This document shows, piece after piece, positions 150 to 64,000 of a stretch of 64,000 nt of DNA. The DNA is taken from contig OY970368.1 of assembly GCA_963718615.1 (NCBI GenBank), positions 1,536,001 to 1,600,000 on the forward strand. Direction: 5' to 3'. The position numbers were made by a program, and so were the translations under genes. The notes beneath the pieces were generated by a model. That model was not told where the DNA came from and did no database searches. It worked only from the letters and a program-made list of their open reading frames with translations. The stretch comes from an uncultured cyanobacterium. GTDB taxonomy: Bacteria; Cyanobacteriota; Cyanobacteriia; PCC-9006; JAAUQQ01. Every line of letters starts with the position of its first letter. Position 1 is the first letter of the stretch.

Positions 150-731
150 ATGACGCCTGCTGAGCTTACGCAGATTTTGACGGAACGCTTTGGAGAGACC
201 GCTGTGGTCTTATCTCCCGAAGCTATTCAAATTGATACCCCCGAGTTTCGGCTGCTTGCACTGCTCTCGGAGGATCAGCAGTGGCTGCGGCTGTTGCTGC
301 CGATTGTGCCCCTACAGGAAGCCGAGCCCTATCTCAAACAGGCACTTCAGGCTAACTTTGACGAGACGCAACTGGTTCGTTATGCCGTTGAGCAGGACAT
401 TCTCTGGGCGGTGTACCATCACCATCTGGGGCGATTGGATCCGGAGGAGTTGGCGGTGGCGATCGCCCAGCTCCTAGCCCTCCAGCAAGCGGGCATCACC
501 TCCTTGTTCAACCATCAGCTTGAAACCCAGCTCCGTCAAATCATCTGGGCCAGCAAACGTCAGGGTCAAACCCTCGCCACGACTCTTCAAACCTTGGAGC
601 GCTTCTATGCAGAGGGCATGATGGGGGAGCTTGACCAATCCGCTGAATCTCGCGATCGCACCCTAGCAGCCTGGCGTAACCAGCTCAATCGCCTCTGGGA
701 CACCATCGATCCTGCCGACCCGACTCCCTAG
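150..731 (+). CDS. Conserved cyanobacterial hypothetical protein (YbjN/T3SS-chaperone-like N-terminal domain)
   Basis: 193-aa ORF; WLRLLLPI...LQANFD...RYA motif resembles YbjN-like chaperone folds. Confidence 0.6.
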   Translation: MTPAELTQILTERFGETAVVLSPEAIQIDTPEFRLLALLSEDQQWLRLLLPIVPLQEAEPYLKQALQANFDETQLVRYAVEQDILWAVYHHHLGRLDPEELAVAIAQLLALQQAGITSLFNHQLETQLRQIIWASKRQGQTLATTLQTLERFYAEGMMGELDQSAESRDRTLAAWRNQLNRLWDTIDPADPTP

Positions 732-850
732 GGCTTAGAGGAGGTAGGGATGACCGTCTGCACTCAGCCTCTAGAGCAAGCTACAATCAGCCCAAGACGA
801 TGCTGGCACCCGCTGCAAGGCCGTCCTGCCCTCTAGAGAGACCACAATGC

Positions 851-1171
851 ATGGATAGCAATAACCTATTGCGACAGCTCATGATGATTGGCGTTGGCAC
901 CACGTCCCTCGTCGCCGATAAGCTGCGCGAAGTCAGCGAAGAATGGGTCAATACCGGACGACTAGACCCGAACCAAGCCTCTGCGTTTGTGGATGATTTT
1001 CTCAAGCAATTTAAGGCCGATCCGGGCAATTTTGAAGCGCAGTTTCAGCGCCAACTGCAAAATCTACTCCAGGAGTTGGGGGTGCCTCGCCAGAACGAGA
1101 TGGACGAACTCCGAGGCCGTTTGGATCGCCTTGAACGCAAACTACGAGAATTGGAGAATCGCCACTGGTAA
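851..1171 (+). CDS. Phasin-family (PhaF/PhaI-like) small coiled-coil protein
   Basis: MDSNNLLRQLMMIGVGTTS...EMDELRGRLDRLE; start moved to ATG 851. Confidence 0.75.
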   Translation: MDSNNLLRQLMMIGVGTTSLVADKLREVSEEWVNTGRLDPNQASAFVDDFLKQFKADPGNFEAQFQRQLQNLLQELGVPRQNEMDELRGRLDRLERKLRELENRHW

Positions 1172-1213
1172 ACTGGGGTGCAGTGAAATCAGTCACCCTG
1201 AGGAGCAATCCCT

Positions 1214-1798
1214 GTGCGCGAAATTTTTATCAGCTTGGGCGTGATGGTTGCCTGTTTGGCAATCTTTTTGGTGGCCCAGTTTAGTGGTCCGACCCCGAGT
1301 GCAACGGCGGCTCGTCTCGACGAAGCTGAAATGACCGCTGATCTTCTGGCTAGTATCCCTCGCGCTCAATCGATTAGCTTGGGCGTGCCAAAACCGGCTG
1401 AAGCAACCCTCTCTGATCCATCCATGTCTGAAGATTCTAATCCGATGTCCGAAAGCTTAACAACCACTCCCTCTGGCCTCCAGTATGAAGATCTAGTGGC
1501 AGGGGAAGGTGCATCGCCCCAAACCGGTCAGCGTGTGTCGGTTCATTACACCGGCACGTTGGAAGATGGGACGCAATTTGATAGCTCGCGCGATCGCAAC
1601 CGTCCCTTTGAATTCAAAATCGGCGTGGGCCAAGTCATCAAGGGCTGGGATGAAGGCGTGGCCTCGATGCAAGTGGGCGGTCGCCGTAAGCTATTGATTC
1701 CGCCGGATCTGGCCTATGGCGAACGGGGTGCCGGGGGGGTAATTCCCCCCAATGCCACACTGATTTTTGATGTTGAACTGTTGCGGATTGCGGGTTAG
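1214..1798 (+). CDS. FKBP-type peptidyl-prolyl cis-trans isomerase with N-terminal signal/anchor
   Basis: [43 protein letters not shown]. Confidence 0.95.
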
Positions 1799-1807
1799 GA
1801 GCACTAG

Positions 1808-2872
1808 TTAGCGATAGGCAGCCAGGGCCACGCGCAGCCGATCCACTTCAAAGCTCCGGGGATCAAAGCGATCGCCGGAGCGATCAATGGCCTGGTGGGT
1901 CGTAATCCGATCTAGGGACACGCGACTCTGGCCGATGAGCCAAGCCAGAGAATCATACTGGGCCTGGGTATAGCCGCTGTGGATGGGTTCGTCGCCATAA
2001 CCATCCGGTGGGCTTTCTAGGGAAATGTGATAGGCAAAGTTATTTACCGACGGCGGCAGTTTGGGGTGGGTTTTGACCGTTTCCGCTTGACCATCGACAC
2101 CAACAAAGATGGAGTTTCCTGCGCCGTAGGCCCGCTTTTCGGGTGGCACCAAATAGACCACTGTGCCATTGCGCCGAATCAGCGTGTGATAGCTAGCCTG
2201 GTCTTCGTCGTTGGGATGGGGCGTCTGGAAAAAGGCGATGGCTGAATCCGCCGAGGAAACGGTTTCATGCAAAACAATAATGGGCAGATGATTCGCGGGC
2301 TTTTGGTCGATATCCTTAGCGAAGCGATCGCCATAGTTCGTCGGATCAGCCCAGGCAATTTCATAGGCAGGCTGTCGGCTGGCTAACCCAACCTTGCCTG
2401 TCGTATTCACATTCGTCACGGGAGCCATACTCTGGGCAACGGGGTCATCGGTGACGGAGCGGACTGGTAACGCCGGGTTATTGATCGAGGCGCTGGACTG
2501 ACTAGGGCTGGACTGACTGGAGCTGGCCTGCGGAGTTGATGGGGAGAGTGCCGCCGGGGGGGTGGGAGGAACAGTTGATGCCGGCAAAGGGACCTGACCC
2601 ACAACCGACTTCGACCGCTGTTCAAAGCGATCAATCCCGGTCTTCGGTGTTGAGGCCGAAGGGGGCACAGCCTTGGAATTGGAAGGTATTGCTGCTGCCG
2701 GACTTGCCGCTGCCGGAGGAGAAGCAGAGACTAAAGCGGGTATTTCCTGTGCGTCTCCCGTTTGGGCGATCGCCCCCGGCAGCAGTTTGATCGCAAAAAA
2801 ACTACAAAACCCAAAGAGAAAACACCCAATCAGGACCAGGTAGGTTGTCGGGTTGCGGAGATCCAGTCTCAT
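1808..2872 (-). CDS. N-acetylmuramoyl-L-alanine amidase (Amidase_2 type) with TM anchor and Pro/Ser linker
   Basis: IVLHET, ASYHTLI, RAYGAG, ITTH...DP motifs. Confidence 0.85.
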   Translation of the reverse strand: MRLDLRNPTTYLVLIGCFLFGFCSFFAIKLLPGAIAQTGDAQEIPALVSASPPAAASPAAAIPSNSKAVPPSASTPKTGIDRFEQRSKSVVGQVPLPASTVPPTPPAALSPSTPQASSSQSSPSQSSASINNPALPVRSVTDDPVAQSMAPVTNVNTTGKVGLASRQPAYEIAWADPTNYGDRFAKDIDQKPANHLPIIVLHETVSSADSAIAFFQTPHPNDEDQASYHTLIRRNGTVVYLVPPEKRAYGAGNSIFVGVDGQAETVKTHPKLPPSVNNFAYHISLESPPDGYGDEPIHSGYTQAQYDSLAWLIGQSRVSLDRITTHQAIDRSGDRFDPRSFEVDRLRVALAAYR

Positions 2873-3062: not shown

Positions 3063-4799
3063 TTAAGCCCCTGATTGCGGATGGAATCGGTAAACTAGCT
3101 GGGTTTCCCAAGGCTCAAGGGAGCCGTCGACGAGTTGGCTCAAGGGATAAGCACGACGGTCGAGTTTCATTTGTAACCCAACAAACGAATCCGTGCCATC
3201 GGAGACAAGCAGCTCAAGCTGTTTAATTTCACTCCAGGTACTCAGGTCTTGGAGGAGCCGCTGCATGGCCTGGTAGGTTGCCGCATCGGGTTGACGGTAC
3301 CAGTCGGCGGGTGCGCCGTCGAAATGGGTGAAGCCTATCTGCACAATGAGCGATCGCCCCCCAAAGACCGCGATCGCCACGGGACGAGGCTCTTCTTGCA
3401 AATCAAACCCCTGCTGCTGCACCCAGCCCCGCAGTTTTTCCAACCGTTGGTAGCGCTGTTGCAGCGTCAGCGGTTCGTCGTTCCACTGGATCGCCAGGGT
3501 CGTCAAGAACGTGCGCAGGAACAAATGGCCCAGCTTTTCAGCCTTCGTCGCCAAATACTGGGAGTTAAATTCCGTCGCTTCAATCAACAGCGGCACGCGA
3601 TCAACCACTTCCAGGCCATAGCCCTTGAGTCCGGCGATTTTACGGGGATTATTGGTAATCAGCCGAATTTTGTGGATCCCCAGGTCATTGAGAATCTGAG
3701 CCCCAACGCCGTAGTTGCGCAGATCCGCCGGGAAACCCAGGCGCTCATTGGCTTCGACGGTATCTAGACCCAAATCCTGAAGGGAATAGGCTTTGAGCTT
3801 ATTAATCAGGCCAATGCCTCGACCTTCCTGCCGCAGATAGACCACAACCCCCTGGTCCGCATTTTCGATCATCTTGAGCGCCGCCTGGAGCTGCATCCGG
3901 CAGTCGCAGCGCAGCGACCCCAGGGCATCCCCGGTCAAACATTCCGAGTGCATCCGCACCATCACCGGTTCCTGGGTAAACCGCTGGGGATCGCCCTTGA
4001 CGATGGCCACATGCTCCGAGTTATCCAGGGTATTGCGATAGGCATAAATCTGGAATCGGCCAAATTCACTAGGCAAATTCGTGACGGTTTCTCGGACGAC
4101 AAACCGTTCATTTTGTAGCCGATAACTAATCAGATCCGCAATGCTAATCAGCTTCAATTTGTGCTCACGGGCATAGCTGACCAATTGGGGTAACCGCGCC
4201 ATCGAGCCATCAAAATTTTGAATTTCGCAAATCACCCCCGCCGGATAAAGTCCGGCCAAGCTCACCAGATCGACCGCTGCTTCGGTATGGCCTGCCCGTT
4301 GCAAAACGCCGCCAGACTTGGCCCGTAATGGGAAAATATGGCCGGGGCGGCGTAAATCCGCAGGTTTGGTTTGGGGATTGATGATGGCCTGGATGGTGCG
4401 AGCGCGGTCTTCGGCAGAAATACCTGTGGTGACTCCTAACTGAGGCGAGGCATCCACACTGACGGTAAACGCAGTTTGGTTGCTGTCGGTGTTTTTGTTC
4501 ACCATCAGCGGTAAATCGAGCTCGTCGAGGCGATCGCCCGTTGCCGCCAAACAAATCAACCCCCTGGCTTCCACCGCCATAAAGTTAATCATGTCGGGGG
4601 TGGCAAACTGGGCTGCACCGATCAGATCGCCCTCGTTTTCACGACCTTCATCATCAACCACCACGATGGCCCGACCCGCCTTTAAATCCAGCAGAGCCGC
4701 TTCAATGGGGTCAAACTGAAACTCTGGCAGCGCTTCCGCTTGGGGATCCAGGTCAGGATTGAATGAAGGGTTGGCGTTGGTAGAAGATGAAGCGTTCAA
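3063..4799 (-). CDS. ribBA: Bifunctional DHBP synthase / GTP cyclohydrolase II with cyanobacterial C-terminal extension (start uncertain)
   Basis: [47 protein letters not shown]. Confidence 0.95.
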
Positions 4800-5104: not shown

Positions 5105-6832
5105 ATGCCTCGCATTGTCATCTGTGGGCTAGGCCAAACGGGCCAGAGAATTTTTTCGCTGCTGTATCACCAGGGAGCAGATGTCGTCGGAATTCATCCG
5201 GAACGGCTCAGCACGGGTCCCCTCGCGATGGGGCCGATGGCTGAGCGCCTGATTGTGGGGGATGGACGACTAACGGCAACGCTGTTGCAAGCGGGGATTC
5301 GCGAGGCTCAGGTACTGATTTTAGCCAGCAGTGACGATACGTTGAATTTGGCGGTTTTGGTTCAAGCGCGGGTGCTCAACGCTCGGTTATGCATTATTAA
5401 CCGTCTGTTTAATACCAGTTTGGGGGAACGACTCGATCGCACGTTGGTCAATCATGTTTCCATGAGCGTGTCGGCCCTGTCCGCCCCCATTTTTACGTTT
5501 GCGGCGTTGGGGAGTCAGGCGATCGGCCAACTCCAACTTTTCGGTCAGACCTGGCCAATCTATGAAGAACACATTGATGACCATCATCCCTGGCTAGGGC
5601 GTCTCCTGAGTGATCTTTGGGACGATCGCGATCGCATGCTGATCTATCACCGCCTCCAGGGAGAAGCCACGGGCTTGGTGCAGGGATTGTTTGATGCCCG
5701 TTGCTTGCAGGTGGGCGATCGCCTCGTCGTGGCCACCCGGCCCAGTGTCTTTCGCCGTCGCAATTCTTTCAAACGCCTAGCGACTCGATGCATCAATGGG
5801 TTACGTCGGTTTCAGCAGTATGGGCGATCGACTCTTTTGGTGACCTTACTGTTGTTGAGCGCGGTGGCGATCGCCACACTCACCTACATTTCCGACAATG
5901 CCCCCACCTCCATGATTGATGCGCTCTATTTTGCCGTGGGTATGATTACCGGCGCGGGGGGCAATGAGTTTGTCGTGGAAGGGGCTCCAGCCTGGGTCAA
6001 GCTCTTTACGGTGCTGATGATGCTGGTGGGGGCAGCAATCATTGGTATTTTCTACGCCCTGTTGAATGATTTCATCCTCGGCAGCCGCTTTCGGCAGCTC
6101 TGGCAAGTGGCCCAAGTCCCGGCGCGCCACCATTACATCGTCTGCGGTATGGGCGGCGTTGGGATTCAAATCACGCGCCAACTGCGGGCCAATGGCCATG
6201 ATGTCGTGGTGATTGAACAGGACCTCCACAATCGCTTTTTGGGAACGGCTCAATCGCTCAAAGTGCCTGTGATCCACGCCGACGCCACCCTGGCCAATAG
6301 CCTTCAGGCCGCCAACCTCAGTCGAGCCGCAGCGCTGTTGGCTGTCACCAGCCAGGACCTCACCAATATTGAAATTGCCCTGACGGCCAAGGGTCTTGCG
6401 CCCCGTTTACCGGTGATTGTCCGCTCCTACGACCCCGAGTTCGCGCGCAAAGCCCCCCAAGTTTTTGAGTTTGATGCGGTCTTGAGTCCGGCAGAATTGG
6501 CAGCGCCTTCCTTTGCGGCGGCGGCCTTGGGCGGTCGAGTTTTGGGAAATGGCACGATCGCCGGTAGTCTTTGGGTTGCCCTGGCAACCTTGATCACACC
6601 TCACCACCCCCTCTGCGGACAATCGGTGAAGCAGGCAGCGATCGCCACCGACTTTGTCCCGCTTTATCTAGAGGCCCCTGAGCACACCTCCCATGGCTGG
6701 GAATTATTAGATACGACCCTCCAGGCAGGCCACGTACTTTATTTGACCTTGCCTGCCCACCGGCTCGAACGCCTCTGGCAACCGACGGCTCAGACCTTCA
6801 TTGACGCTTTTCCATCCTCCATGACATTCTGA
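5105..6832 (+). CDS. TrkA-N/RCK domain-containing ion (K+) channel family protein
   Basis: Two GxGxxG RCK domains (CGLGQTG, CGMGGVG) flanking a TM-pore-TM segment. Confidence 0.85.
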   Translation: MPRIVICGLGQTGQRIFSLLYHQGADVVGIHPERLSTGPLAMGPMAERLIVGDGRLTATLLQAGIREAQVLILASSDDTLNLAVLVQARVLNARLCIINRLFNTSLGERLDRTLVNHVSMSVSALSAPIFTFAALGSQAIGQLQLFGQTWPIYEEHIDDHHPWLGRLLSDLWDDRDRMLIYHRLQGEATGLVQGLFDARCLQVGDRLVVATRPSVFRRRNSFKRLATRCINGLRRFQQYGRSTLLVTLLLLSAVAIATLTYISDNAPTSMIDALYFAVGMITGAGGNEFVVEGAPAWVKLFTVLMMLVGAAIIGIFYALLNDFILGSRFRQLWQVAQVPARHHYIVCGMGGVGIQITRQLRANGHDVVVIEQDLHNRFLGTAQSLKVPVIHADATLANSLQAANLSRAAALLAVTSQDLTNIEIALTAKGLAPRLPVIVRSYDPEFARKAPQVFEFDAVLSPAELAAPSFAAAALGGRVLGNGTIAGSLWVALATLITPHHPLCGQSVKQAAIATDFVPLYLEAPEHTSHGWELLDTTLQAGHVLYLTLPAHRLERLWQPTAQTFIDAFPSSMTF

Positions 6833-56703: not shown

Positions 56704-57666
56704 ATGACAGTCCCGCTTGGTGCCAGATGTCTGGCGATCGCCCTAAGGCAAAAAACTTTAAGCAACGGCTGCAAAACCCTTTGGCAGACTATCAGGGGGG
56801 GGGGACTGTCGTTGTTGCTGGCCTTACCGGTGATCGCCCAACCGATTCGCGCCATCGAGATCAATCCCGATACTTCTGCTTTTCAAAATAAAACGCTGCA
56901 ACTCGGCAAGCTCAGCATCCAGGTGAGCTATACGCCGCTGAAGCGTGAGGAAGTGGGGAGCGATCGCAAAAATCTCACCTACCAAATTCTGAATGATGGC
57001 AAACCACAGCTAACGGGTGAATTGCAAACCGCTGTCATAGGGCATATTAGCCTTCTAGATCTCGACAACAACCTTAGCCCTGAAGTGGCGATCAAAACCT
57101 ATACTGGTGGCACCCATTGTTGTACTACACTAACAATCTTTAGTGCGGCTAAGGGACAACCCTATGGCCAAGCCCAGATGCTTGAAGGACTGGATGGTAC
57201 CGGGGGAGAGTTCAAAGATTTAGATGGAAATGGCTCGATTGAATTTATCAGTTCAGATAATCGTTTTCTATACAACTTTTCTGGCTATGCTCAAGCGTTT
57301 CCACCCTCGCAAATTCTAGCCTGGAGTAATGGCAAGTTTATTGATGTGACCCGTCGCTATCCCAAGGAATTGCGGGCTCGGGCCTGGCTAATGTTCCAGC
57401 AGTTGCAGGAGCTAGAAAAGGGCGGCACAGGGCTTTCGACCAATGGAATTTTGGCAGGCTATGTGGCTCAAAAAGCGATGCTAGGTGAGTACGATGCCGG
57501 TTGGCAACTGATGCTGGCGCGTTATGACAAAACCACGACTTGGGGATTGGAAAAGCGGGATAGTCAAGGTCGTGAAGTGGGAAAATATGCGAATTTTCCA
57601 GATGCGTTAAAGGCATTTTTGATTCAGAGTGGTTATCTGGATCAGAATGGTCAGCCGAAGAAATAG
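56704..57666 (+). CDS. Secreted hypothetical protein with DxDxxG motifs
   Basis: Signal-like segment; DLDNNLSPE, YTGGTHCC, DLDGNGSIEF. Confidence 0.7.
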   Translation: MTVPLGARCLAIALRQKTLSNGCKTLWQTIRGGGLSLLLALPVIAQPIRAIEINPDTSAFQNKTLQLGKLSIQVSYTPLKREEVGSDRKNLTYQILNDGKPQLTGELQTAVIGHISLLDLDNNLSPEVAIKTYTGGTHCCTTLTIFSAAKGQPYGQAQMLEGLDGTGGEFKDLDGNGSIEFISSDNRFLYNFSGYAQAFPPSQILAWSNGKFIDVTRRYPKELRARAWLMFQQLQELEKGGTGLSTNGILAGYVAQKAMLGEYDAGWQLMLARYDKTTTWGLEKRDSQGREVGKYANFPDALKAFLIQSGYLDQNGQPKK

Positions 57667-57703
57667 AATCTCAACGCTGTGTTGATTGCGATCGCGACGG
57701 ACA

Positions 57704-57914: not shown

Positions 57915-60014
57915 CTAAAGTTTGCTCGGGTTCAGGTGTAGAAGCATCTGGTGTTGAGACAAAGCTATCACTCCAGGGGGTCTCGTTAGGGGGGGGAGCA
58001 GAGGTCCCATGACCTGGCGATCGCGCGGATTCTGAGGCAAAACCGGCCCAAGCATTTCAGGTTTGGGTTCAGGCTTTAATTCAGGCTTTAATTCAGGCTT
58101 GGCCTCGGTTGAAGTTTGCGGTTGAATCGGTCCAATCAGTTCAGACTTATCGCTTGCCTTGGGTTCCGCGCTTGGCGCGGTACTGGGCGTTGAACTGGGT
58201 GTTGGACTGGGTGTTGGACTGGAATTGGGCGTGGGCGTTGCACTAGGTGTCGAACTGGATGTCGAACTGGATGTCGAACTGGGCGCAGTGGGTTTAGCCT
58301 CTGGCAGAAGCGTATCAAAGGAGCGCAAGAACTGAAAATTGAGATCGTATCGAGTCCAGCGTTCATCTTCAATCCGACGCTCTGCCCCAGCGCTCTTAAG
58401 CGCATCTACGAAGGGCTGAAGACCAACGGGCAAGGGCAAAAGCGAGGGTAAATTGGTTTTGGAAACGCGATCGAGATCCATAAACAACTGACCCGTTGCA
58501 GGGGTAGCGTCTTGGGAACGCGGCATCCCCTCCCGATAGAGCGGACTGCCCGCCAAGGTCGCCTGGGGTTGCGGCAACAGCAAGCTGGCTCCTGGGGCTC
58601 CGACGATTAAAAAGGCGACATTCCCCTCTAGCCAGCCGTGGGTAACCACCGGTTCGCCGGCCTGATTCAGCCAATTGACCACGGGTTGACCCGCTAAGGT
58701 ACCGGTGTTGAGCCGCAGTCGGTATTTGTTGACCATGAGCGAATCCAGCTTTTGCAGCGATCGCTCCGCCAGCCGCCGGTTACCGGTCTGGACCATCACC
58801 GTTAGACCCGCCTCAAACCGAGAATTGGCCTTAGAGGGAATGGGTAAAAGACCCACCGCATAGGACCCATCCATCCAGGTTAGCCAGTCTTGGTCGAGAT
58901 CCATGCTCGTGACGGCCTTGATTTGCTCTCGCAGGGCGTTGGCATTGAGCAAGGGCGAGGCATTAGGGTTTTGGCTATAGGAACTCCAGGCATCCTTGAG
59001 GCTGCGGCCCGTGAGCAACAGTGACGTGGAGGCTGGGAAGCGATCGCCCAAGGCCGTCGTCAGGTCCACCCGCTTGCCATCGGATGGATTGAGCAAACTT
59101 AGGCCCGAGTTGCGGGGCAATTGCCAGGTCAAGCTTTCGATGGAAAAACCATTGTCCACCAGATCGATCTGGGCCATCAGCCCTTGAATATCGCTGGGCA
59201 GAGGCAATAAACGACCCGCAGCAGTGGTTGCTTGCGTCGCTGCTGGAGCATTGAGATAGAGCGTCGCGAAGGGGTCACGCTCGCTGTCGCTGTTAGCAGG
59301 CTGTTGCCGCTGTTGGGCGATGCGGTAGTCTTCGAGCTGGAGCAAGGATTTGCGGTCAAAATAGCTGTCGATCGCCCGCTCCAATGTCGCCCCATTGGCC
59401 GCGACTAACGCGTAGGACCCCAAAATCGCCACATGATGACGCTGGGCCAGATCCGCTTGAATCTGCCAAACTTCTACCCCGCGATAATCAGAAACCTGAT
59501 TTTCGAAGCCCTGGGGCGGTTTGAGTTGACGAATTTTTTGCTGAATCGCCCCTGGGTTTTTGAGGGGAGCGACGAGCAGCAGATCGGACTGGGGTTTGAG
59601 CGCTGGATTCGTCGAAGGATTCGCGACCGTCGCCGGGACGAGGGCGATCGCCGGTTCTCCCGCCAGTTGCGTCTGGACCTGCTGCCAATCTCCGTAGCCC
59701 AAATTCGTGATGCGATCGCGCCCAATCGCCAACCATTGCCCTAAGCCCTTTTGTAGCGAAGGTGTTCCCAGTCGCCGTGCCGTCTCCCACTGGCTGCGAT
59801 CATCGGTCAAGGAAAGGACGGCGATCGCATTCTCCGGTACCAAACTCAGCGCCTGCTCCGGACCCGGCACCACCGTCCGCTGACTGACATAGGCCGCCAC
59901 TCCCCCACCCAAAATCACCGCCACTGCCCCAATTCCCAACAGCAGCTTACGACCCTTGGGTCGAGGCGGTTGAGCAGGAAAGTCTTGCTGAAGTGGCAGT
60001 TCGGCTTGGGTCAT
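57915..60014 (-). CDS. DUF3352 domain membrane-anchored protein with S/T/P-rich tail
   Basis: TM near N-terminus, YRGVEV, DWLTWMDGSYA, HGWL; low-complexity C-terminal repeats. Confidence 0.8.
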   Translation of the reverse strand: MTQAELPLQQDFPAQPPRPKGRKLLLGIGAVAVILGGGVAAYVSQRTVVPGPEQALSLVPENAIAVLSLTDDRSQWETARRLGTPSLQKGLGQWLAIGRDRITNLGYGDWQQVQTQLAGEPAIALVPATVANPSTNPALKPQSDLLLVAPLKNPGAIQQKIRQLKPPQGFENQVSDYRGVEVWQIQADLAQRHHVAILGSYALVAANGATLERAIDSYFDRKSLLQLEDYRIAQQRQQPANSDSERDPFATLYLNAPAATQATTAAGRLLPLPSDIQGLMAQIDLVDNGFSIESLTWQLPRNSGLSLLNPSDGKRVDLTTALGDRFPASTSLLLTGRSLKDAWSSYSQNPNASPLLNANALREQIKAVTSMDLDQDWLTWMDGSYAVGLLPIPSKANSRFEAGLTVMVQTGNRRLAERSLQKLDSLMVNKYRLRLNTGTLAGQPVVNWLNQAGEPVVTHGWLEGNVAFLIVGAPGASLLLPQPQATLAGSPLYREGMPRSQDATPATGQLFMDLDRVSKTNLPSLLPLPVGLQPFVDALKSAGAERRIEDERWTRYDLNFQFLRSFDTLLPEAKPTAPSSTSSSTSSSTPSATPTPNSSPTPSPTPSSTPSTAPSAEPKASDKSELIGPIQPQTSTEAKPELKPELKPEPKPEMLGPVLPQNPRDRQVMGPLLPPLTRPPGVIALSQHQMLLHLNPSKL

Positions 60015-60167: not shown

Positions 60168-61520
60168 TCACTGCGCCGGAGTCACTTGAGACACTTGTTC
60201 AGCGGCCTGGACTGCGGCAGTCAGCTTGGCGTCGTTGAGAGCGGAAACCACCGCTTCTTGCTGTCTGTAGAAATAATCCAAATCAGAACCGTAGTTTTGG
60301 ATGGCAAAACAAACCGAGTCCGGTTGCTCCAACGATAGCGCGGGTTGGCTGGCGATGGGCAAGACGCCTGCGAGATTGCTGACGGTAGCCAAAGTTCCGG
60401 TTTTCCCAATCAGCCCCGACGGCAAATTGCGGTCTTCGAGGGTCCCCCGATCCACGGGGACAATCGGTAATACATCCCTGAGGCCCAGCTGATGGGGGTT
60501 TAGCTGATGGCCGATGACATCCAGAATGCGGCAAGCGGCCCGAGGCGAAAGCTGGTTTTCCTCGCCTAGACCTGAGCCATTAATAAACTCAACTTCAGAG
60601 GCGGGCACCCCGGCCACCCGCTCCACGGCGCTCTTCATCATGGTGGGTCCCCCTAGCAAATCCGACAGCAGTTGGGCCATGTCGTTGTTGCTATACATAT
60701 TCATGCGCTTGAGCAGTTCCTGAAGCGCAAAGGAGTGGTGCTCAGCCACGATCGGGGTGGTGGCTTTGTCGATGTCGTTGACCCCGAGGGCTTGCCCACG
60801 AATTTTGACCTCAGGCTTAGCCGTTCCCGCTGGCAGCGTGGCGTACTGCTGGGCGGCTTCCCAGCCCCAGATGCTTGAATCTAGACCCTGGCGGAGGAGT
60901 TCGGTGGCGGCGTCGCGATCGCGATCAAAGTTCATCACAAACACCCCGGTAACGAGCAAGTTCCCCGTGACTTCGCGAATTCCCAGTTTATTCAGGCTGT
61001 TGCCAACGGCGATCGCCGACTCCCAAACAAACATCGGATCCGCACCGCCAAAAAAGACCAGATCGCCATTGAGTACACCGTCTTGGACTGTGCCGCGAAT
61101 GCCAATGCGGGTAATAAATTTATAGTTGGGATCCCAGCGATCGAGGGCTGTCAGCGTCGTGGCCAATTTGGTGAGGGAGGCGGCGGGGAGGCGGGTTTTG
61201 CCTTGATGTTCTGCTAGGAGGCGATCGCCACTTTGCACCCAGATGCCCTGGGCATTGGGGTCTACCCCAGTTGCCGCTAACCGGTCTACATATTGCTGAA
61301 CAATGCTTTGAATTTGCGTATCTGGCTGATCTTCCCGAACCGCAACATAGAGCTTAGGGGGATCGGGGGGCTGAACCGGAAAAATAGTCGTTGGAGCGTT
61401 GGCGACACCTGGAGCGTCTGCTCTAGGCATTCGACTCGCCAGGGCCAGCTTGAGGGCGGCAAGGCCCACCACTACACCGGTGACCACCGACAGGGTTCGG
61501 AAGAAATTGGGATTACCCAT
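60168..61520 (-). CDS. dacB: D-alanyl-D-alanine carboxypeptidase/endopeptidase (peptidase S13, PBP4)
   Basis: PAASLTK (SxxK), SNN, NGSGL, KTGTL. Confidence 0.9.
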   Translation of the reverse strand: MGNPNFFRTLSVVTGVVVGLAALKLALASRMPRADAPGVANAPTTIFPVQPPDPPKLYVAVREDQPDTQIQSIVQQYVDRLAATGVDPNAQGIWVQSGDRLLAEHQGKTRLPAASLTKLATTLTALDRWDPNYKFITRIGIRGTVQDGVLNGDLVFFGGADPMFVWESAIAVGNSLNKLGIREVTGNLLVTGVFVMNFDRDRDAATELLRQGLDSSIWGWEAAQQYATLPAGTAKPEVKIRGQALGVNDIDKATTPIVAEHHSFALQELLKRMNMYSNNDMAQLLSDLLGGPTMMKSAVERVAGVPASEVEFINGSGLGEENQLSPRAACRILDVIGHQLNPHQLGLRDVLPIVPVDRGTLEDRNLPSGLIGKTGTLATVSNLAGVLPIASQPALSLEQPDSVCFAIQNYGSDLDYFYRQQEAVVSALNDAKLTAAVQAAEQVSQVTPAQ

Positions 61521-62730: not shown

Positions 62731-62830
62731 CGCTCCTCACCCACCCGTAAAATCGACTGCGCTTTGCTCAACTTGCCCTGGTCATCCTGACGGCCTTGGA
62801 CTGGCCCTGTCTTTCACGATTACTCTGCCG

Positions 62831-62875
62831 TTAGTGACTCCTGCTTAGTGACTCCTGCTTAGTGACTCCGCTTAG
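62831..62875. repeat. 14-bp tandem repeat TTAGTGACTCCTGC x~3
   Basis: Seen directly; third unit has a 1-bp deletion. Confidence 0.85.
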
Positions 62876-63124
62876 AAATATCGTTCAAGAAAATGTATCT
62901 AGATGCCTACTAGCTAATATCAGAACCCTAGAAATATCGAGCCGTAATTTTACCTAAATTTAACAAGCAGATTTCAGGACCCAACTTTACAAATCTTGTT
63001 CGATCCCTGCCTGATTCAACCGTCAATTTACGGACGCCGACTTAGTGTATATCGAATTTTTCAAAAGCTGTAAACCGCTGGATCGCCGATTGCCGTGGGA
63101 TCCGTAGGGGGATTCAACTTAATG

Positions 63125-63144
63125 TGCGTACGCAATGATACGCA
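63125..63144. promoter_or_regulatory. Palindrome TGCGTA-N8-TACGCA containing a GTA-N8-TAC (NtcA-like) core
   Basis: GTACGCAATGATAC at 63128-63141; no canonical -10 at 22 nt spacing. Confidence 0.35.
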
Positions 63145-63269
63145 AAAAGGGGTGGTGACCCTTACCCCTGGCGGGAGAAGACCCCCAGGAAATTTTGTCG
63201 ATTTTTAGAGGTTTGGGGCTTTAGGTGGGGCGGTTAAGGGCTGAAGATAGGCAGGAATTGCCTGTGCCT

Positions 63270-64000
63270 TTAGGCGGCGAGAGTGGTGTGTAACAAGTCA
63301 CGATGGATGAGGGCGCGATCGCGTAAAGATTGTCGTTGATTTGTAGACAAAGGTTGATGCTGGGTACAGTGGGCTAGCCAAGCTTCAAATAAGACCGTTG
63401 GCTGCTCCGGAAGTTGTGCTAAATTCCAACCCGGTAAACCCACATCCTCCATCAAGGCATCTACCTTGGGGTCGTAGCTGAGGGCGGAACAGCGGCAGCC
63501 CTCTGAGGCCGCCATAATCAGCCCATGCAAACGCATAGAAAGGGCAAAGTTAATGTGCTTGAAAACACCTTTTAAGGTTCGTGGATCTTGACGTTCGAGG
63601 ATGAGTGTAGGGCCGGGGAGGGCAGTGGCAAGCTGTTGGGCGATCGCCCCATCCTGAATCGGTTGAAAGGGCAACAGGACGAAAGAGGCTTGGAGCTTGT
63701 CCTGAAGCAGCTTGAGGGCTTCGATGATGCAGGCCAGTCGGGGTGGTGTCAGGCTGGGGTGGGGCCGCAGACTGATGGCGATGCGAGGCTCAGGGAGCTC
63801 TAAAACAGCAGGGGCCGGTAGGGCTTCCAAGGCCCAAACGGGGTCTGGGGCCAACAGGCAGGGAATTTGCCAGTCGCTCAAAAGCTGGGCCGAGGTGCTA
63901 TCACGGACGCTGATGCGATCGCAGCGGCTAAAGGTCTTTTCGGCCAGCCAGCGGGTAAACGGGTGTTGCAATGGACCAATGCCCTGGGCCCAGGCCAGGG
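63270..64000 (-). CDS. csaB: Polysaccharide pyruvyl transferase CsaB (5' truncated by window)
   Basis: AQGIGP, ISVRD, APDPVW, MRLHGLI, SYDPKV. Confidence 0.9.
   Translation of the reverse strand, partial: LAWAQGIGPLQHPFTRWLAEKTFSRCDRISVRDSTSAQLLSDWQIPCLLAPDPVWALEALPAPAVLELPEPRIAISLRPHPSLTPPRLACIIEALKLLQDKLQASFVLLPFQPIQDGAIAQQLATALPGPTLILERQDPRTLKGVFKHINFALSMRLHGLIMAASEGCRCSALSYDPKVDALMEDVGLPGWNLAQLPEQPTVLFEAWLAHCTQHQPLSTNQRQSLRDRALIHRDLLHTTLAA

What the first reader, a model, noticed from the sequence alone, without database searches (positions are those of the whole stretch)
430..63660. Base composition flips from G/T-rich to C/A-rich across HIP1 sites, independent of coding strand
Seen: many GCGATCGC sites have keto-rich (G/T) sequence on the left and amino-rich (C/A) sequence on the right. 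Examples: 459 ggaggagttggcggtg|HIP1|ccagctcctagccctcc; 35893 tgggttggatggcttggagg..|HIP1|ccaaacccatccccc; 36061 caggaggttg|HIP1|cacgattccccatccccctaac; 43321 ccgtggggttgacgacggag|HIP1|ccaaaccacagaccaatacgcacacc; 45064 aggtttgggtggt|HIP1|cccgcgcctccagc; 52627 ggaggtgattgaggag|HIP1|caacaccctag. The host genes lie on both strands, and the pattern reads the same on the reverse complement. Established: HIP1 is hyper-abundant and methylated in many cyanobacteria, and its function is unresolved (methyl-directed repair and recombination have been proposed). Inference: each site may initiate a strand-asymmetric process (nicking, resection, resynthesis or conversion) that leaves a local mutational footprint like a miniature origin skew. 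This would be a direct clue to what HIP1 does. The examples were picked by eye, so selection bias is possible.
Basis: partly seen in the sequence, partly recalled or inferred. Interest (0 to 1): 0.75.

Follow-up and report, generated by a model that had tools for sequence, protein, structure and literature searches.

The report
G-to-C skew gradient flanking HIP1
Each copy of the very abundant cyanobacterial palindrome GCGATCGC is flanked, on both strands, by 30-100 bases that are G-rich before it and C-rich after it, a footprint that suggests a strand-directed DNA repair or recombination process starting at the site and offers a new way to study the palindrome's long-unknown function.

Summary
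In the window, 67 of 87 left flanks and 68 of 89 right flanks (ties dropped) have the predicted sign. In the 6.1-Mb genome (8,832 HIP1 sites), 4-fold-site GC skew is about +0.5 at 4-9 nt 5' of the site on either strand. It decays as a single exponential (lambda 32.6 nt, 95% range 30-35). It is a pure G/C exchange, with no A/T skew beyond 10 nt and no GC-content change. It occurs in both gene orientations, all three frames and intergenic DNA. Controls lack it: internal one-mismatch octamers, CGATCG or GATC alone, 19 other palindromes, non-HIP1 Ala-Ile-Ala codons, every other 6-8-mer, and orthologous flanks lacking HIP1. Half-sites (GCGATCG) carry it on their 5' side only. At offset -25 it is positive in 44 of 45 HIP1-rich genomes, and absent at chance HIP1 sites in HIP1-poor genomes and around the alternate palindrome GGGATCCC. 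Hairpins, a second motif and coding effects are excluded. Best reading (0.55): a HIP1-anchored nick followed by short 5'-to-3' removal of the opposite strand, biasing repair or conversion towards G on the retained strand. No enzyme was identified. I found no published report in my literature searches.

The parts
430..63660 (.).
   Evidence: mean G-C in the 30-nt flank is +2.84 left and -3.19 right
459..466 (.).
   Evidence: left +12, right -6; gene +
652..659 (.). HIP1
   Evidence: left +2, right -6; gene +
1590..1597 (.). HIP1
   Evidence: left +6, right -1; gene +
1868..1875 (.). HIP1 (against the trend)
   Evidence: left -3, right +7; gene -
2324..2331 (.). HIP1
   Evidence: left +2, right -1; gene -
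2766..2773 (.). HIP1
   Evidence: left +1, right -2; gene -
3350..3357 (.). HIP1, first of a pair 20 nt apart
   Evidence: left +2, right -3; gene -
3370..3377 (.). HIP1, second of the pair
   Evidence: left -6 (C-rich flank of its neighbour), right -1; gene -
4530..4537 (.). HIP1
   Evidence: left -2, right -8; gene -
5628..5635 (.). HIP1
   Evidence: left +5, right -1; gene +
5715..5722 (.). HIP1
   Evidence: left +6, right -4; gene +
5867..5874 (.). HIP1
   Evidence: left +5, right -12; gene +
6638..6645 (.). HIP1
   Evidence: left -2, right -4; gene +
7266..7273 (.). HIP1
   Evidence: left +4, right -6; gene +
7963..7970 (.). HIP1
   Evidence: left -1, right -5; gene +
9960..9967 (.). HIP1
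   Evidence: left +2, right -14; gene +
10499..10506 (.). HIP1
   Evidence: left +5, right -7; gene +
10586..10593 (.). HIP1
   Evidence: left +11, right -3; gene +
10790..10797 (.). HIP1
   Evidence: left +1, right -4; gene +
10969..10976 (.). HIP1
   Evidence: left +3, right +1; gene +
12453..12460 (.). HIP1 (left flank against the trend)
   Evidence: left -13, right -5; gene +
12686..12693 (.). HIP1
   Evidence: left +7, right +9; gene +
12849..12856 (.). HIP1
   Evidence: left +7, right +1; gene +
13955..13962 (.). HIP1
   Evidence: left +5, right +2; gene +
14294..14301 (.). HIP1
   Evidence: left 0, right -10; gene +
15250..15257 (.). HIP1
   Evidence: left +1, right -9; gene -
15884..15891 (.). 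HIP1
   Evidence: left +5, right -10; gene -
16261..16268 (.). HIP1
   Evidence: left +2, right +1; gene -
16541..16548 (.). HIP1
   Evidence: left +11, right +1; intergenic
16850..16857 (.). HIP1
   Evidence: left +3, right -7; gene -
17342..17349 (.). HIP1 inside a repeated element (inverted copy)
   Evidence: left -5, right 0; gene -
20127..20134 (.). HIP1 inside the same repeated element
   Evidence: left 0, right +5; gene +
24191..24198 (.). HIP1 inside the same repeated element
   Evidence: left 0, right +5; gene +
26628..26635 (.). HIP1
   Evidence: left -5, right -8; gene -
28831..28838 (.). HIP1
   Evidence: left +9, right -4; intergenic
29159..29166 (.). HIP1
   Evidence: left +1, right -6; gene +
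29533..29540 (.). HIP1
   Evidence: left -3, right -2; gene +
30292..30299 (.). HIP1
   Evidence: left +7, right -1; gene -
31385..31392 (.). HIP1
   Evidence: left +1, right -5; gene -
31822..31829 (.). HIP1
   Evidence: left +4, right +1; gene -
31924..31931 (.). HIP1
   Evidence: left +7, right -8; gene -
32707..32714 (.). HIP1
   Evidence: left -3, right -11; intergenic
33102..33109 (.). HIP1
   Evidence: left +7, right -2; gene +
35519..35526 (.). HIP1
   Evidence: left +3, right +4; intergenic
35893..35900 (.).
   Evidence: left +11, right -9; gene -
36061..36068 (.).
   Evidence: left +11, right -12; gene -
36199..36206 (.). HIP1 (against the trend)
   Evidence: left -5, right +6; gene -
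36576..36583 (.). HIP1
   Evidence: left +3, right -8; gene -
37302..37309 (.). HIP1
   Evidence: left +7, right -5; gene -
37577..37584 (.). HIP1
   Evidence: left +4, right -2; gene -
37788..37795 (.). HIP1
   Evidence: left -2, right 0; gene -
38174..38181 (.). HIP1
   Evidence: left +5, right -9; gene -
38883..38890 (.). HIP1
   Evidence: left +7, right 0; gene -
40329..40336 (.). HIP1
   Evidence: left +8, right -4; gene +
41284..41291 (.). HIP1
   Evidence: left -1, right +2; gene +
42640..42647 (.). HIP1
   Evidence: left +8, right -6; gene +
43321..43328 (.).
   Evidence: left +7, right -6; gene +
43679..43686 (.). HIP1
   Evidence: left +7, right -2; gene +
44780..44787 (.). HIP1
   Evidence: left +3, right -5; gene -
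45064..45071 (.).
   Evidence: left +5, right -5; gene -
46679..46686 (.). HIP1, first of three within 100 nt
   Evidence: left 0, right -10; gene +
46733..46740 (.). HIP1, second of three
   Evidence: left -3, right -13; gene +
46775..46782 (.). HIP1, third of three
   Evidence: left -11 (C-rich flank of its neighbour), right -4; gene +
47069..47076 (.). HIP1
   Evidence: left 0, right +6; gene +
47109..47116 (.). HIP1
   Evidence: left +6, right +1; gene +
47692..47699 (.). HIP1
   Evidence: left +6, right -7; gene +
48473..48480 (.). HIP1
   Evidence: left +4, right -8; gene +
49520..49527 (.). HIP1
   Evidence: left 0, right -1; gene +
50288..50295 (.). HIP1
   Evidence: left +3, right -3; gene +
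50404..50411 (.). HIP1, first of a pair 12 nt apart
   Evidence: left +1, right -2; gene +
50416..50423 (.). HIP1, second of the pair
   Evidence: left -5, right -4; gene +
50974..50981 (.). HIP1
   Evidence: left +4, right +2; gene +
51563..51570 (.). HIP1
   Evidence: left +5, right -6; gene +
51931..51938 (.). HIP1
   Evidence: left +6, right +6; gene +
52627..52634 (.).
   Evidence: left +6, right -2; gene +
54271..54278 (.). HIP1
   Evidence: left -1, right +2; gene +
54455..54462 (.). HIP1
   Evidence: left +2, right -7; gene +
54935..54942 (.). HIP1
   Evidence: left 0, right -3; gene +
55902..55909 (.). HIP1
   Evidence: left +3, right 0; gene +
56144..56151 (.). HIP1
   Evidence: left -1, right -5; gene +
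56734..56741 (.). HIP1
   Evidence: left +1, right -1; gene +
56960..56967 (.). HIP1
   Evidence: left +8, right -4; gene +
57688..57695 (.). HIP1
   Evidence: left +3, right 0; intergenic
58017..58024 (.). HIP1
   Evidence: left +7, right -1; gene -
58757..58764 (.). HIP1
   Evidence: left 0, right -4; gene -
59040..59047 (.). HIP1
   Evidence: left +7, right -5; gene -
59644..59651 (.). HIP1
   Evidence: left +3, right -2; gene -
59712..59719 (.). HIP1
   Evidence: left -4, right -11; gene -
59821..59828 (.). HIP1
   Evidence: left +3, right -8; gene -
60915..60922 (.). HIP1
   Evidence: left +8, right -7; gene -
61009..61016 (.). HIP1
   Evidence: left -3, right -7; gene -
61221..61228 (.). 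HIP1
   Evidence: left +6, right 0; gene -
63315..63322 (.). HIP1
   Evidence: left +9, right +6; gene -
63640..63647 (.). HIP1
   Evidence: left +11, right +2; gene -
63915..63922 (.).
   Evidence: left +4, right +1; gene -

Best explanation
The gradient is the compositional footprint of a DNA transaction anchored at HIP1 that has two-fold symmetry and treats the two strands differently. Shown: the unit is the strand-specific half-site 5'-GCGATCG-3'; the effect lies 5' of it on the same strand; the two arms act independently; each nucleotide is affected independently; the effect falls off as a single exponential with a mean reach of about 30 nt; and it acts as a fixation-type bias with G favoured, C disfavoured and A/T neutral. 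Inferred mechanism: a protein recognises the half-site and nicks the opposite strand at or beside the site. That strand is then removed 5'-to-3' and resynthesised, or corrected within a short heteroduplex, over a geometrically distributed tract of about 30 nt. As a result, the strand carrying GCGATCG is always the template or 'winner' on its 5' side. Two sources of bias would both give the observed sign under this geometry, and I cannot separate them. (a) Complementary mismatches are recognised unequally, G.G well and C.C hardly at all (recalled from E. coli MutS and pneumococcal Hex work), so 'retained strand wins when the mismatch is seen' drives G onto the retained strand. (b) Patch synthesis occurs with scarce dGTP relative to dCTP (recalled), making the resynthesised strand C-rich and G-poor. 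In either case the skew is a by-product, a strand-polar form of biased conversion or mutation, and not itself the function of HIP1. Its amplitude varies between lineages: this window's family is the strongest seen and family f6 shows none.
For: Specificity: in an unbiased scan of all 7-mers, GCGATCG has z = 114. After masking +-130 nt around half-sites, no 6-, 7- or 8-mer stands out (z SD 1.0-1.3, maximum 3.5-4.9). CGATCG without the outer G/C, GATC alone, GCGATC[not G] and 19 other GC-rich palindromes give about 0. Internal one-mismatch octamers give about 0. Strand-specific unit: octamers mismatched only at the outer base keep the skew on the intact side only (ACGATCGC right -0.31/-0.29, left +0.12/+0.07; GCGATCGT left +0.37/+0.34, right about 0). 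GCGATCG[not C] gives 5' +0.25/+0.17/+0.14 and 3' about 0. This is replicated in G001 (5' +0.057+-0.013, 3' +0.014+-0.013). DNA-level symmetry: the change in ln(G/C) at 4-fold sites is equal and opposite upstream and downstream at every distance, in both gene orientations and all 3 frames, and is also present in intergenic DNA. Tract-like decay: single exponential, lambda 32.6 nt (bootstrap 30.2-35.3) and amplitude 0.59 at 4-fold sites; lambda is 28.5+-5 in G058, 37+-10 in G001 and 31+-10 in G023; no 10.5-nt periodicity. Per-nucleotide bias: 2-fold sites shift as well (C/(C+T) 0.39 to 0.22; G/(A+G) 0.53 to 0.69). Flank k-mers sit at mononucleotide expectation. There is no left/right co-adaptation or hairpin, no compensation between codon positions (r = +0.13 against +0.055 at random), and no under-dispersion (SD 4.9 against 4.7). 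The skew follows HIP1: orthologous flanks lacking HIP1 carry +0.025+-0.011 against +0.13 where HIP1 is present (255 lineage-specific sites). It needs the HIP1 system: 44 of 45 HIP1-rich genomes are positive at -25, while 8 pooled HIP1-poor genomes give -0.012+-0.018. The process is local: there is no dependence on neighbour distance beyond 150-300 nt. Outside support: Elhai's model makes the 7-mer on one strand the functional unit and has the opposite strand nicked and degraded. Kamoku and Nielsen report that HIP1 inside homology arms raises integration up to 7-fold when unmethylated, independently of AddAB.
Against: No enzyme was found. G000 has no Vsr and no MutH homologue. Its only C5-methyltransferase sits beside a BsuBI/PstI-type endonuclease and looks like an R-M partner, so the m5C mark that Elhai's model needs may be missing. 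18 of 45 HIP1-rich genomes have no PF00145 hit, and presence does not track the skew. MutS1 is in 61 of 61 genomes, so it explains none of the lineage differences. Fully intergenic flanks are less skewed than 4-fold sites (change in ln(G/C) about 0.43 against 1.1 at 4-9 nt; all-position skew +0.20 against +0.25 in coding flanks), which a purely neutral per-site process does not predict. Family f6 is HIP1-dense (2.7 per kb) yet has no skew (+0.004 and -0.003), so HIP1 abundance does not require this process. The alternate palindrome GGGATCCC has none (-0.022+-0.006). The half-site effect was not seen in G023 (+0.008+-0.018) and could not be tested in G058 (30 half-sites). Conserved sites are more skewed than lineage-specific ones only at 2-9 nt (z = 3.2), not at 10-39 nt (z = 0.5), so build-up over time is not shown for the long gradient. 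The sign argument rests on recalled biochemistry from other organisms. Mutation bias, conversion bias and selection cannot be separated from composition alone.
Confidence: 0.55

Rival explanations
1. Direct selection on flank composition: HIP1 works better (as a recombination, uptake or structural signal) when each strand is G-rich 5' and C-rich 3' of it, and weak selection on many nucleotides maintains the gradient.
For: HIP1 motifs are conserved beyond codon conservation (Xu 2018, passages read). HIP1 stimulates integration in a Chi-like way. Total skew is similar in coding and intergenic flanks (+0.25 against +0.20), as if a target total were being met. At 2-fold and 4-fold sites the pattern behaves as a fixation bias and not as one mutation class.
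Against: There is no compensation between constrained and free codon positions (r = +0.13 against +0.055 background) and no under-dispersion. There is no G-run or any other motif beyond composition, and no arm-to-arm co-adaptation. T is not enriched and A/T skew is nil beyond 10 nt, which speaks against the recalled RecA GT-preference and against purine-rich RNA:DNA hybrid models. The effect per nucleotide at 60-100 nt is minute and exponentially graded, which is hard to reconcile with a binding or structural requirement. f6 genomes keep dense HIP1 without it.
Confidence: 0.2
2. Reversed causality: HIP1 arises or survives preferentially where a G-rich stretch already meets a C-rich stretch, so the skew is a precondition and not a consequence.
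For: GGCGATCGCC is itself G-rich then C-rich. Lineage-specific sites have as much skew at 10-39 nt as conserved ones (+0.130 against +0.137). Orthologous flanks lacking HIP1 keep a small residue (+0.025+-0.011).
Against: Conditioning on G-rich starts has no effect: GCGATC[not G] gives 0.00-0.02. Orthologous flanks without HIP1 have lost at least 80% of the skew. No source of G|C junctions exists elsewhere in the genome. Half-sites carry the skew on the intact side only. Chance HIP1 sites in HIP1-poor genomes have none.
Confidence: 0.08
3. A coding or translation effect: G-ending codons are preferred upstream and C-ending codons downstream of HIP1-encoded peptides in the mRNA sense. Because the pattern is its own reverse complement, this would look strand-independent.
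For: The effect is largest at third codon positions, and 3,745 Ala-Ile-Ala tripeptides are encoded by HIP1.
Against: It is present in intergenic DNA. It is equal and opposite upstream and downstream at every distance and the same in all three frames. It is absent at 228 Ala-Ile-Ala tripeptides not encoded by HIP1. It is one-sided at half-sites and absent at chance HIP1 sites in HIP1-poor genomes with the same frames.
Confidence: 0.02
4. HIP1 is the core of a longer degenerate palindrome, hairpin or dispersed repeat whose arms happen to be G-rich and C-rich.
For: The GG..CC extension is real (58% G at -1; mirror pairing at +-1 is 0.45 against 0.39 after swapping partners).
Against: Mirror complementarity equals that of swapped partners from +-2 outwards. 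MFE is -18.04 native against -18.15 swapped. Only 60 of 8,831 sites lie in repeated contexts, and removing them changes nothing. There is no position-specific consensus beyond about -4.
Confidence: 0.01

Closest known systems
Elhai's G-m5C-dependent mismatch-repair ratchet for HIP1 (Life 2015, PMC4390886; abstract, passages and section 3.4 part 1 read)
   Same: The functional unit is the 7-mer GCGATCG on one strand. The opposite strand is nicked, degraded and resynthesised, and the motif-bearing strand is preserved. This predicts exactly the one-sided half-site behaviour found here.
   Different: It is a model of how HIP1 is created and says nothing about flanks. It assumes MutH-like long-range repair (about 1 kb), whereas the reach here is about 30 nt with no territory effect. 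It needs an m5C CGATCG methylase and a MutH analogue. G000 has no MutH homologue and only an R-M-type C5 methylase, and dense-HIP1 family f6 has no gradient.
Very-short-patch (Vsr) repair and its distortion of oligonucleotide frequencies in E. coli (recalled, not read here)
   Same: A sequence-specific nick, a short Pol I-type patch 3' of the nick, and a compositional by-product in the genome.
   Different: No Vsr homologue in G000. VSP alters the frequency of the target word itself; a graded skew in the flanks has not, as far as I recall, been described.
Chi sites / Chi-like recombination hotspots
   Same: An over-represented octamer that acts on one strand with polarity towards its 5' side. 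HIP1 in homology arms stimulates recombination (Kamoku and Nielsen preprint; abstract and Discussion read).
   Different: Chi is not palindromic, acts over kilobases, depends on RecBCD/AddAB and is co-oriented with replication. The HIP1 effect reported there is AddAB-independent. No flank-composition gradient is known for Chi (recalled).
Replication-associated GC skew at origins and termini
   Same: An antisymmetric switch of G-C between the two sides of a point, attributed to strand-asymmetric DNA metabolism.
   Different: The scale is about 30 nt, not megabases. The polarity is terminus-like. There is no accompanying T>A skew. There are 8,832 centres per genome. G000 itself has no clean replichore skew.
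GC-biased gene conversion footprints at recombination hotspots (recalled)
   Same: A fixation-type bias that is centred on initiation sites, decays with distance and is strongest at neutral sites.
   Different: gBGC raises G+C on both strands. Here G+C is unchanged (0.68-0.69) and the bias is between strands (G against C).
DNA uptake sequences (USS/DUS); HIP1-as-uptake-signal hypothesis (GBE 2026, PMC13756078; abstract and Discussion read)
   Same: A hyper-abundant short motif that raises transformation efficiency.
   Different: An uptake receptor would not be expected to shape 100 nt of flank with exponential decay and strand polarity. The gradient points to a step inside the cell that acts on one strand.

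Membership tests
HIP1 (hyper-abundant GCGATCGC) | Octamer GCGATCGC far above compositional expectation, in both coding and non-coding DNA | tested here: met
   95 sites in the window against 1.3 expected. 8,832 in 6.1 Mb, or 1.45 per kb, with 7,916 in genes and 916 intergenic.
Extended HIP1 palindrome GGCGATCGCC | The flank signal is confined to 1-3 palindromic positions next to the octamer | tested here: not met
   Skew at 4-fold sites is still +0.26 at 20-39 nt and +0.13 at 40-79 nt. Mirror pairing exceeds the swapped control only at +-1. Extension and gradient vary independently between genomes.
Replication-origin-type skew switch | C-rich to G-rich polarity on the + strand, kb-Mb scale, accompanying T>A skew | tested here: not met
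   Polarity is G-rich to C-rich. Lambda is 32.6 nt and A/T skew is within +-0.024 beyond 10 nt.
Very-short-patch (Vsr) repair | Vsr endonuclease gene present | tested here: not met
   PF03852: 0 matches in G000 (100% complete); the control rings in E. coli.
Very-short-patch (Vsr) repair | Short patch on the 3' side of a strand-specific nick | tested here: inconclusive
   A 30-nt exponential reach and the polarity are compatible, but no nick was observed.
Methyl-directed MMR / Elhai's G-m5C model | Strand-specific 7-mer GCGATCG as the acting unit | tested here: met
   One-sided skew at half-sites in G000 and G001. Not seen in G023 and untestable in G058.
Methyl-directed MMR / Elhai's G-m5C model | MutH-type nickase present | tested here: not met
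   PF02976: 0 matches in G000 at E <= 0.1. A non-homologous analogue cannot be excluded.
Methyl-directed MMR / Elhai's G-m5C model | Orphan m5C methyltransferase acting on CGATCG | tested here: inconclusive
   One PF00145 gene, adjacent to a BsuBI/PstI-family endonuclease. Its specificity is unknown and the methylome was not available.
Methyl-directed MMR / Elhai's G-m5C model | Long-range action (about 1 kb), with each site serving the territory up to the next site | tested here: not met
   Flank skew is +0.33 to +0.36 whatever the neighbour distance from 150 nt to over 1,200 nt; lambda is about 30 nt.
Chi-like hotspot | Dependence on RecBCD/AddAB and co-orientation with replication | not testable with these tools
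   HIP1 is palindromic and the genome has no clear replichores. The preprint reports AddAB independence in another species.
GC-biased gene conversion | Rise of G+C towards the centre | tested here: not met
   GC fraction at 4-fold sites is 0.694, 0.691, 0.689, 0.680, 0.679 from 4-9 nt out to 80-149 nt.
Hairpin / REP-like extended palindrome | Base-for-base complementarity of the two arms within a site | tested here: not met
   Native equals swapped partners for mirror pairing from +-2 outwards and for MFE.
DNA uptake sequence | Motif-specific binding by an uptake receptor | not testable with these tools
   Known only from the literature.

The most novel reading that the evidence does not exclude
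HIP1 is the entry site of a dedicated, strand-polar short-patch repair or recombination system in cyanobacteria. Each half-site directs a nick on the opposite strand, and about 30 nt of that strand are replaced. The result is a previously unrecognised 'skew-biased gene conversion' that makes the retained strand G-rich. The flank gradient would then be a genomic record of the system's polarity, tract length and per-lineage activity, and it would reshape synonymous codon choice near HIP1: 43% of this genome lies within 130 nt of a half-site. The amplitude could serve as a quantitative trait for finding the unknown HIP1 nuclease by comparative genomics.
Probability: 0.35. Interest if true: 0.9.

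Novelty: new variant of a known kind. Interest (0 to 1): 0.8.

Why it matters
HIP1 was described three decades ago and its function is still debated; proposals include a mismatch-repair ratchet, chromosome structure, a Chi-like hotspot and an uptake signal. The flank gradient adds a new kind of evidence that can be read from any genome sequence. It shows that the acting unit is a strand-specific half-site, that something polar happens on its 5' side, that the reach is about 30 nt, and that the two arms act independently. It is nearly universal where HIP1 is hyper-abundant (44 of 45 genomes) and is missing at chance sites and at an alternate palindrome. Those numbers constrain the models: long-patch MutH-type repair, ssDNA deamination, hairpins and receptor binding alone do not fit. 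They also make the question testable through nick mapping, co-conversion gradients, and regressing amplitude on gene content. In practice, synonymous codon usage within about 100 nt of HIP1 is strongly distorted (G:C at 4-fold sites is about 2.5:1 upstream and 1:3.8 downstream). This confounds codon-bias, selection and skew analyses in cyanobacteria and matters when genes are recoded for these hosts.

Tried and rejected
Hairpin or extended palindrome: mirror pairing and MFE are the same with swapped partners. Second motif or G-runs in the flank: k-mers sit at mononucleotide expectation. Helical (10.5-nt) periodicity: none; only a 3-nt residual. Replication-direction test: not possible, because G000 has no clean cumulative-skew replichores. 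Polarising substitutions: not possible, because the nearest genomes held are 70-80% identical. Age effect: the first sample suggested that older sites are more skewed. With double the data this holds only at 2-9 nt (z = 3.2), not at 10-39 nt (z = 0.5). 'Lineage-specific trait': my reading after the -10 survey was too strong. At -25 the skew is positive in 44 of 45 HIP1-rich genomes, and single-offset raw values understate 4-fold gradients (G023: +0.05 at -10 against +0.29 at 4-fold sites, 10-19 nt). The apparent reversed skew in G039 (-0.185 at -10) is local; at -25 it is +0.058. Candidate genes: Vsr none; MutH none; C5-methylase presence does not track the skew; MutS1 is universal. The dose-response with the GG..CC extension is weak (+0.24 to +0.34). 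MMR-type territory effect: none. Stabilising selection on total skew: no compensation. Sequencing runs: 6 listed, all kept as contigs with word shares of 0.13 or less; no raw reads, so read-end pile-ups at HIP1 could not be examined; no RNA holder listed; I did not lay any run.

Full report
WHAT WAS CHECKED. The window is G000:C1:1536001-1600000 of a single-contig 6.10-Mb genome (52.4% G+C) that could be laid whole. It holds 95 GCGATCGC (HIP1) sites against 1.3 expected from base composition. The genome holds 8,832, or 1.45 per kb. No annotation is supplied, so I built a self-trained ORF caller (4,781 genes, 83.7% coding). All codon-position statements rest on that home-made gene model.

All six quoted examples are HIP1 sites with G-C > 0 in the left 30 nt and < 0 in the right 30 nt, in genes on both strands. 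Over all 95 window sites, left is >0 / =0 / <0 in 67 / 8 / 20 and right is <0 / =0 / >0 in 68 / 6 / 21 (p = 4e-7 and 6e-7). 49 sites fit on both sides and 9 on neither. Genome-wide, the raw GC skew left of the site is +0.60 at -1, +0.45 at -2, +0.24 at -10, +0.17 at -25, +0.12 at -40 and about +0.03 at -70, with the mirror image on the right. The per-site distribution is a unimodal shift: mean +3.2 G-C per 30 nt, SD 4.9 against 4.7 at random positions. It is not driven by a subset of extreme sites. Only 60 of 8,831 sites lie in repeated contexts, and dropping them changes nothing.

IT IS A DNA-LEVEL EFFECT, STRONGEST AT NEUTRAL SITES. On the coding strand, the 4-fold-site GC skew has a baseline of -0.08. 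Upstream of HIP1 it is +0.44, +0.36, +0.22, +0.13, +0.09, +0.01 at 4-9, 10-19, 20-29, 30-39, 40-59, 60-99 nt. Downstream it is -0.59, -0.48, -0.37, -0.30, -0.24, -0.17. Expressed as the change in ln(G/C) from baseline, the two sides are equal and opposite at every distance. Codon positions 1 and 2 shift much less. The pattern holds separately in + strand genes (3,857 sites), in - strand genes (4,057 sites) and in each of the three reading frames. It is also present in intergenic DNA (+0.21, +0.15, +0.12, +0.09, +0.06). Two-fold sites move as well: upstream C/(C+T) falls from 0.39 to 0.22 and G/(A+G) rises from 0.53 to 0.69, with the mirror image downstream. So this is not one mutation class. 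It behaves as a fixation-type bias with G favoured and C disfavoured on the strand 5' of the site. A/T skew is +0.105 at 4-9 nt and within +-0.024 beyond, and G+C stays at 0.68-0.69.

SHAPE. At 4-fold sites the skew on the 5' side follows a single exponential: amplitude 0.59 (0.57-0.61), lambda 32.6 nt (bootstrap 30.2-35.3), offset 0.03. A double exponential collapses to the same lambda. The residual shows only the 3-nt codon period and no helical period.

CONTROLS. Random positions give 0.00. The 18 octamers with an internal mismatch, taken more than 150 nt from any HIP1 (30-151 copies each), scatter around 0. CGATCG without the outer G/C (1,722 strand-occurrences), GATC without flanking C/G (28,940), GCGATC[not G] (2,689) and 19 other GC-rich palindromes all give about 0. 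The 228 Ala-Ile-Ala tripeptides not encoded by HIP1 and more than 150 nt from any HIP1 show no antisymmetric skew, whereas the 3,745 encoded by HIP1 do. In an unbiased scan of all 7-mers, GCGATCG and its complement lead with z = 114, and every other top word overlaps HIP1. After masking +-130 nt around half-sites (43% of the genome), no 6-, 7- or 8-mer stands out: z SD 1.0-1.3 and maximum 3.5-4.9 over 4,089, 16,031 and 49,541 words.

THE UNIT IS A STRAND-SPECIFIC HALF-SITE. Octamers mismatched only at the outermost base keep the skew on the intact side alone. ACGATCGC has right -0.31/-0.29/-0.17 and left +0.12/+0.07/-0.04. GCGATCGT has left +0.37/+0.34/+0.16 and right about 0. Pooled, GCGATCG[not C] gives +0.25/+0.17/+0.14 on its 5' side and about 0 on its 3' side. 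Recently decayed full sites would have kept both flanks, so these are stable half-sites. The effect is also not an artefact of conditioning on a G, because GCGATC[not G] gives nothing. The same one-sidedness appears in G001 (5' +0.057+-0.013, 3' +0.014+-0.013). It was not seen in G023 (+0.008+-0.018, where about +0.035 would be expected) and could not be tested in G058, which has only 30 half-site occurrences in 400 kb.

WHAT IT IS NOT. It is not a hairpin or a longer palindrome. Pairing between mirrored positions equals that of flanks swapped between sites from +-2 outwards, and the MFE of 68-mers is -18.04 native against -18.15 swapped. It is not a second motif: enriched flank words are generic G-rich words at 1.0-1.2 times their mononucleotide expectation. 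It is not stabilising selection on a total, since skew at codon positions 1+2 and at position 3 of the same flank correlate positively (r = +0.14 and +0.12, against +0.055 at random). It is not long-patch, territory-type repair: flank skew is +0.33 to +0.36 whether the next HIP1 is 150 nt or more than 1,200 nt away, and closer neighbours simply superimpose their opposing gradients (+0.18).

THE SKEW FOLLOWS HIP1. I aligned 583 kb of a same-family draft (G001) to G000: 268 segments, 246 kb, 73% identity. Overlapping weaker segments and octamer columns with gaps were dropped. At 212 shared sites both genomes are skewed. At 144 G000-only and 111 G001-only sites, the genome with HIP1 is skewed (+0.13 at 10-39 nt) while the orthologous flank without HIP1 has +0.025+-0.011. 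Protein context therefore does not cause the skew. Conserved sites exceed lineage-specific ones only at 2-9 nt (+0.298 against +0.212, z = 3.2), not at 10-39 nt (+0.137 against +0.130, z = 0.5). The long gradient thus seems to equilibrate faster than sites turn over at this saturated divergence. My earlier impression of a general age effect did not survive the larger sample.

ACROSS GENOMES. I counted G against C at fixed offsets from HIP1 by pattern search over a fixed sample of 61 genomes of the class. Of these, 45 have more than 1,000 HIP1 sites. Eight with 128-482 sites were pooled as 'HIP1-poor'. Eight with fewer than 100 sites were left out. At -25, 44 of the 45 are positive, 38 by more than 2 SE, and none is significantly negative (mean +0.066). 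G000 is the highest (+0.167), followed by G058 (+0.142) and G033 (+0.138). Family f6 is at zero (+0.004 and -0.003). All 21 family means are at or above 0; note that related genomes are not independent. The HIP1-poor pool gives -0.012+-0.018. At -10 the picture is noisier (33 of 45 positive, 5 significantly negative), because local context intrudes: G039 is -0.185 at -10 but +0.058 at -25. Five same-family drafts give +0.21 to +0.24 at -10. In 400-kb samples with my gene caller, the 4-fold gradients are: G058 +0.53 falling to +0.08 with lambda 28.5+-5.4; G001 +0.45 falling to +0.08 with lambda 37+-10; G023 amplitude 0.21 with lambda 31+-10; G029 weak; G016 at most 0.10; G012 0.00-0.06. So the length scale is shared and the amplitude varies more than ten-fold. 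Amplitude falls weakly with HIP1 density (rho = -0.37). The GG..CC extension is a separate feature: G023 has 68% G at -1 but a weak gradient, while G058 has 40% G at -1 and a strong one. The alternate hyper-abundant palindrome GGGATCCC (2,100-5,200 copies in family f4) has no such flank (-0.022+-0.006 at -25, five genomes pooled).

MECHANISM. Shown: a half-site on one strand; an effect confined to its 5' side; independent arms; per-nucleotide action; geometric reach of about 30 nt; and a G-over-C bias with A/T neutral. Inferred: the simplest process with these properties is a nick opposite the half-site, followed by 5'-to-3' removal and resynthesis of the nicked strand, or correction within a short heteroduplex, so that the motif-bearing strand is always the template on its 5' side. 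Elhai proposed this geometry for other reasons (section 3.4). The length scale suggests short-patch or nick-translation-type events and not MutH-type tracts. Two sources of bias, both recalled from work in other bacteria and not tested here, would give the observed sign under that geometry: poor recognition of C.C relative to G.G mismatches, and dGTP scarcity during patch synthesis. ssDNA deamination would give T>A, which is not seen. Independent experiments report that HIP1 in homology arms stimulates integration, AddAB-independently.

WHAT DOES NOT FIT. No enzyme was identified. G000 has no Vsr, no MutH and one Dam-class methylase. Its one C5 methylase lies next to a BsuBI/PstI-type endonuclease, and its homologues are scattered outside cyanobacteria. 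18 of 45 HIP1-rich genomes have no PF00145 hit, and presence does not track amplitude. MutS1 is universal. Intergenic flanks are less affected than 4-fold sites. f6 genomes keep the densest HIP1 without any gradient. Composition alone cannot separate mutation bias, conversion bias and selection.

LITERATURE. I read passages of Xu et al. 2018. For Elhai 2015 I read the abstract, passages and section 3.4 part 1. For the 2026 GBE paper I read the abstract, passages and Discussion. For the Kamoku and Nielsen preprint I read the abstract and Discussion. In Xu 2018 and Elhai 2015, 'skew' and 'asymmetr' do not occur. In the GBE paper 'skew' occurs twice, only about uneven genome sampling. I did not run that term search on the Kamoku and Nielsen preprint. 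Elhai reports only 1-3-nt palindromic extensions. Full-text searches for HIP1 with 'skew' (4 papers, none on flanks), with 'flanking' (5 papers) and with 'asymmetr' (0 papers) found no report of the gradient. The 1990s HIP1 papers and all supplements were not seen.

VERDICT. The interpretation as a site-anchored strand-asymmetric process is the best-supported reading (0.55), but it remains an inference. In the literature I could search, the gradient is an undescribed property of a known element. It gives the HIP1 question measurable parameters: unit, polarity, tract length and per-lineage intensity.

Noticed in passing
window 17342-17349, 20127-20134, 24191-24198: Three HIP1 sites share identical flanks of 25 nt or more on both sides (one copy inverted), so a repeated element is present three times within 7 kb. 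Their flanks do not follow the G-to-C trend (-5/0, 0/+5, 0/+5).
   Followed up: no
window 3350/3370, 50404/50416, 46679/46733/46775: Closely spaced HIP1 pairs and a triplet, some joined by a short C-run. The inner flanks carry the neighbour's opposing skew, as superposition predicts; genome-wide, flanks with a neighbour closer than 150 nt have about half the skew.
   Followed up: partly
G000:C1:6016157-6020026 (locus L109), outside the window: A photolyase gene, followed by the genome's only C5-cytosine methyltransferase and a BsuBI/PstI-family restriction endonuclease. Several 6-mer palindromes are almost absent from the genome: GGCGCC 13 observed against 1,402 expected, CCGCGG 17 against 950, CGGCCG 34 against 1,058, CCCGGG 35 against 958, GGGCCC 92 against 1,403, CTCGAG 120 against 1,267, CTGCAG 418 against 1,960. 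This suggests many present or past restriction systems.
   Followed up: partly
whole genome G000: Ala-Ile-Ala is almost always written with HIP1: 3,745 tripeptides are encoded as GCGATCGC-N, against 228 encoded otherwise and lying more than 150 nt from any HIP1.
   Followed up: no
genomes G010, G036, G072, G087, G099, G111, G123, G144, G154, G164, G173, G191, G199, G231 (family f4): GGGATCCC occurs 2,100-5,200 times per 2.2-3.7-Mb genome, while HIP1 is rare where it was counted (57 in G010, 43 in G036). Its flanks show a very slight opposite skew (-0.022+-0.006 at -25, five genomes).
   Followed up: partly
class sample of 61 genomes: 18 of the 45 HIP1-rich genomes give no six-frame match to the C5-methyltransferase family PF00145. 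They include the very HIP1-dense G012, G031 and G035. HIP1 hyper-abundance therefore does not seem to require an m5C methylase of this family in the genomes searched.
   Followed up: no
G058, 400 kb sampled (loci L123-L142): Half-sites and bare CGATCG cores are almost absent (30 and 10 strand-occurrences, against 988 for full HIP1). In this lineage nearly every CGATCG is a complete HIP1.
   Followed up: no
G039 (family f7): Skew at offset -10 is -0.185+-0.029 but at -25 it is +0.058+-0.028. This points to a strong local sequence preference about 10 nt from HIP1 in this genome, possibly a longer motif or a repeat family.
   Followed up: no
G000 intergenic HIP1 flanks (1,753 fully intergenic flanks): In intergenic flanks G rises (x1.33) while C falls only slightly (x0.86). 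At 4-fold sites G rises x1.6 and C halves. I have no explanation for the weaker and differently shaped intergenic response.
   Followed up: partly
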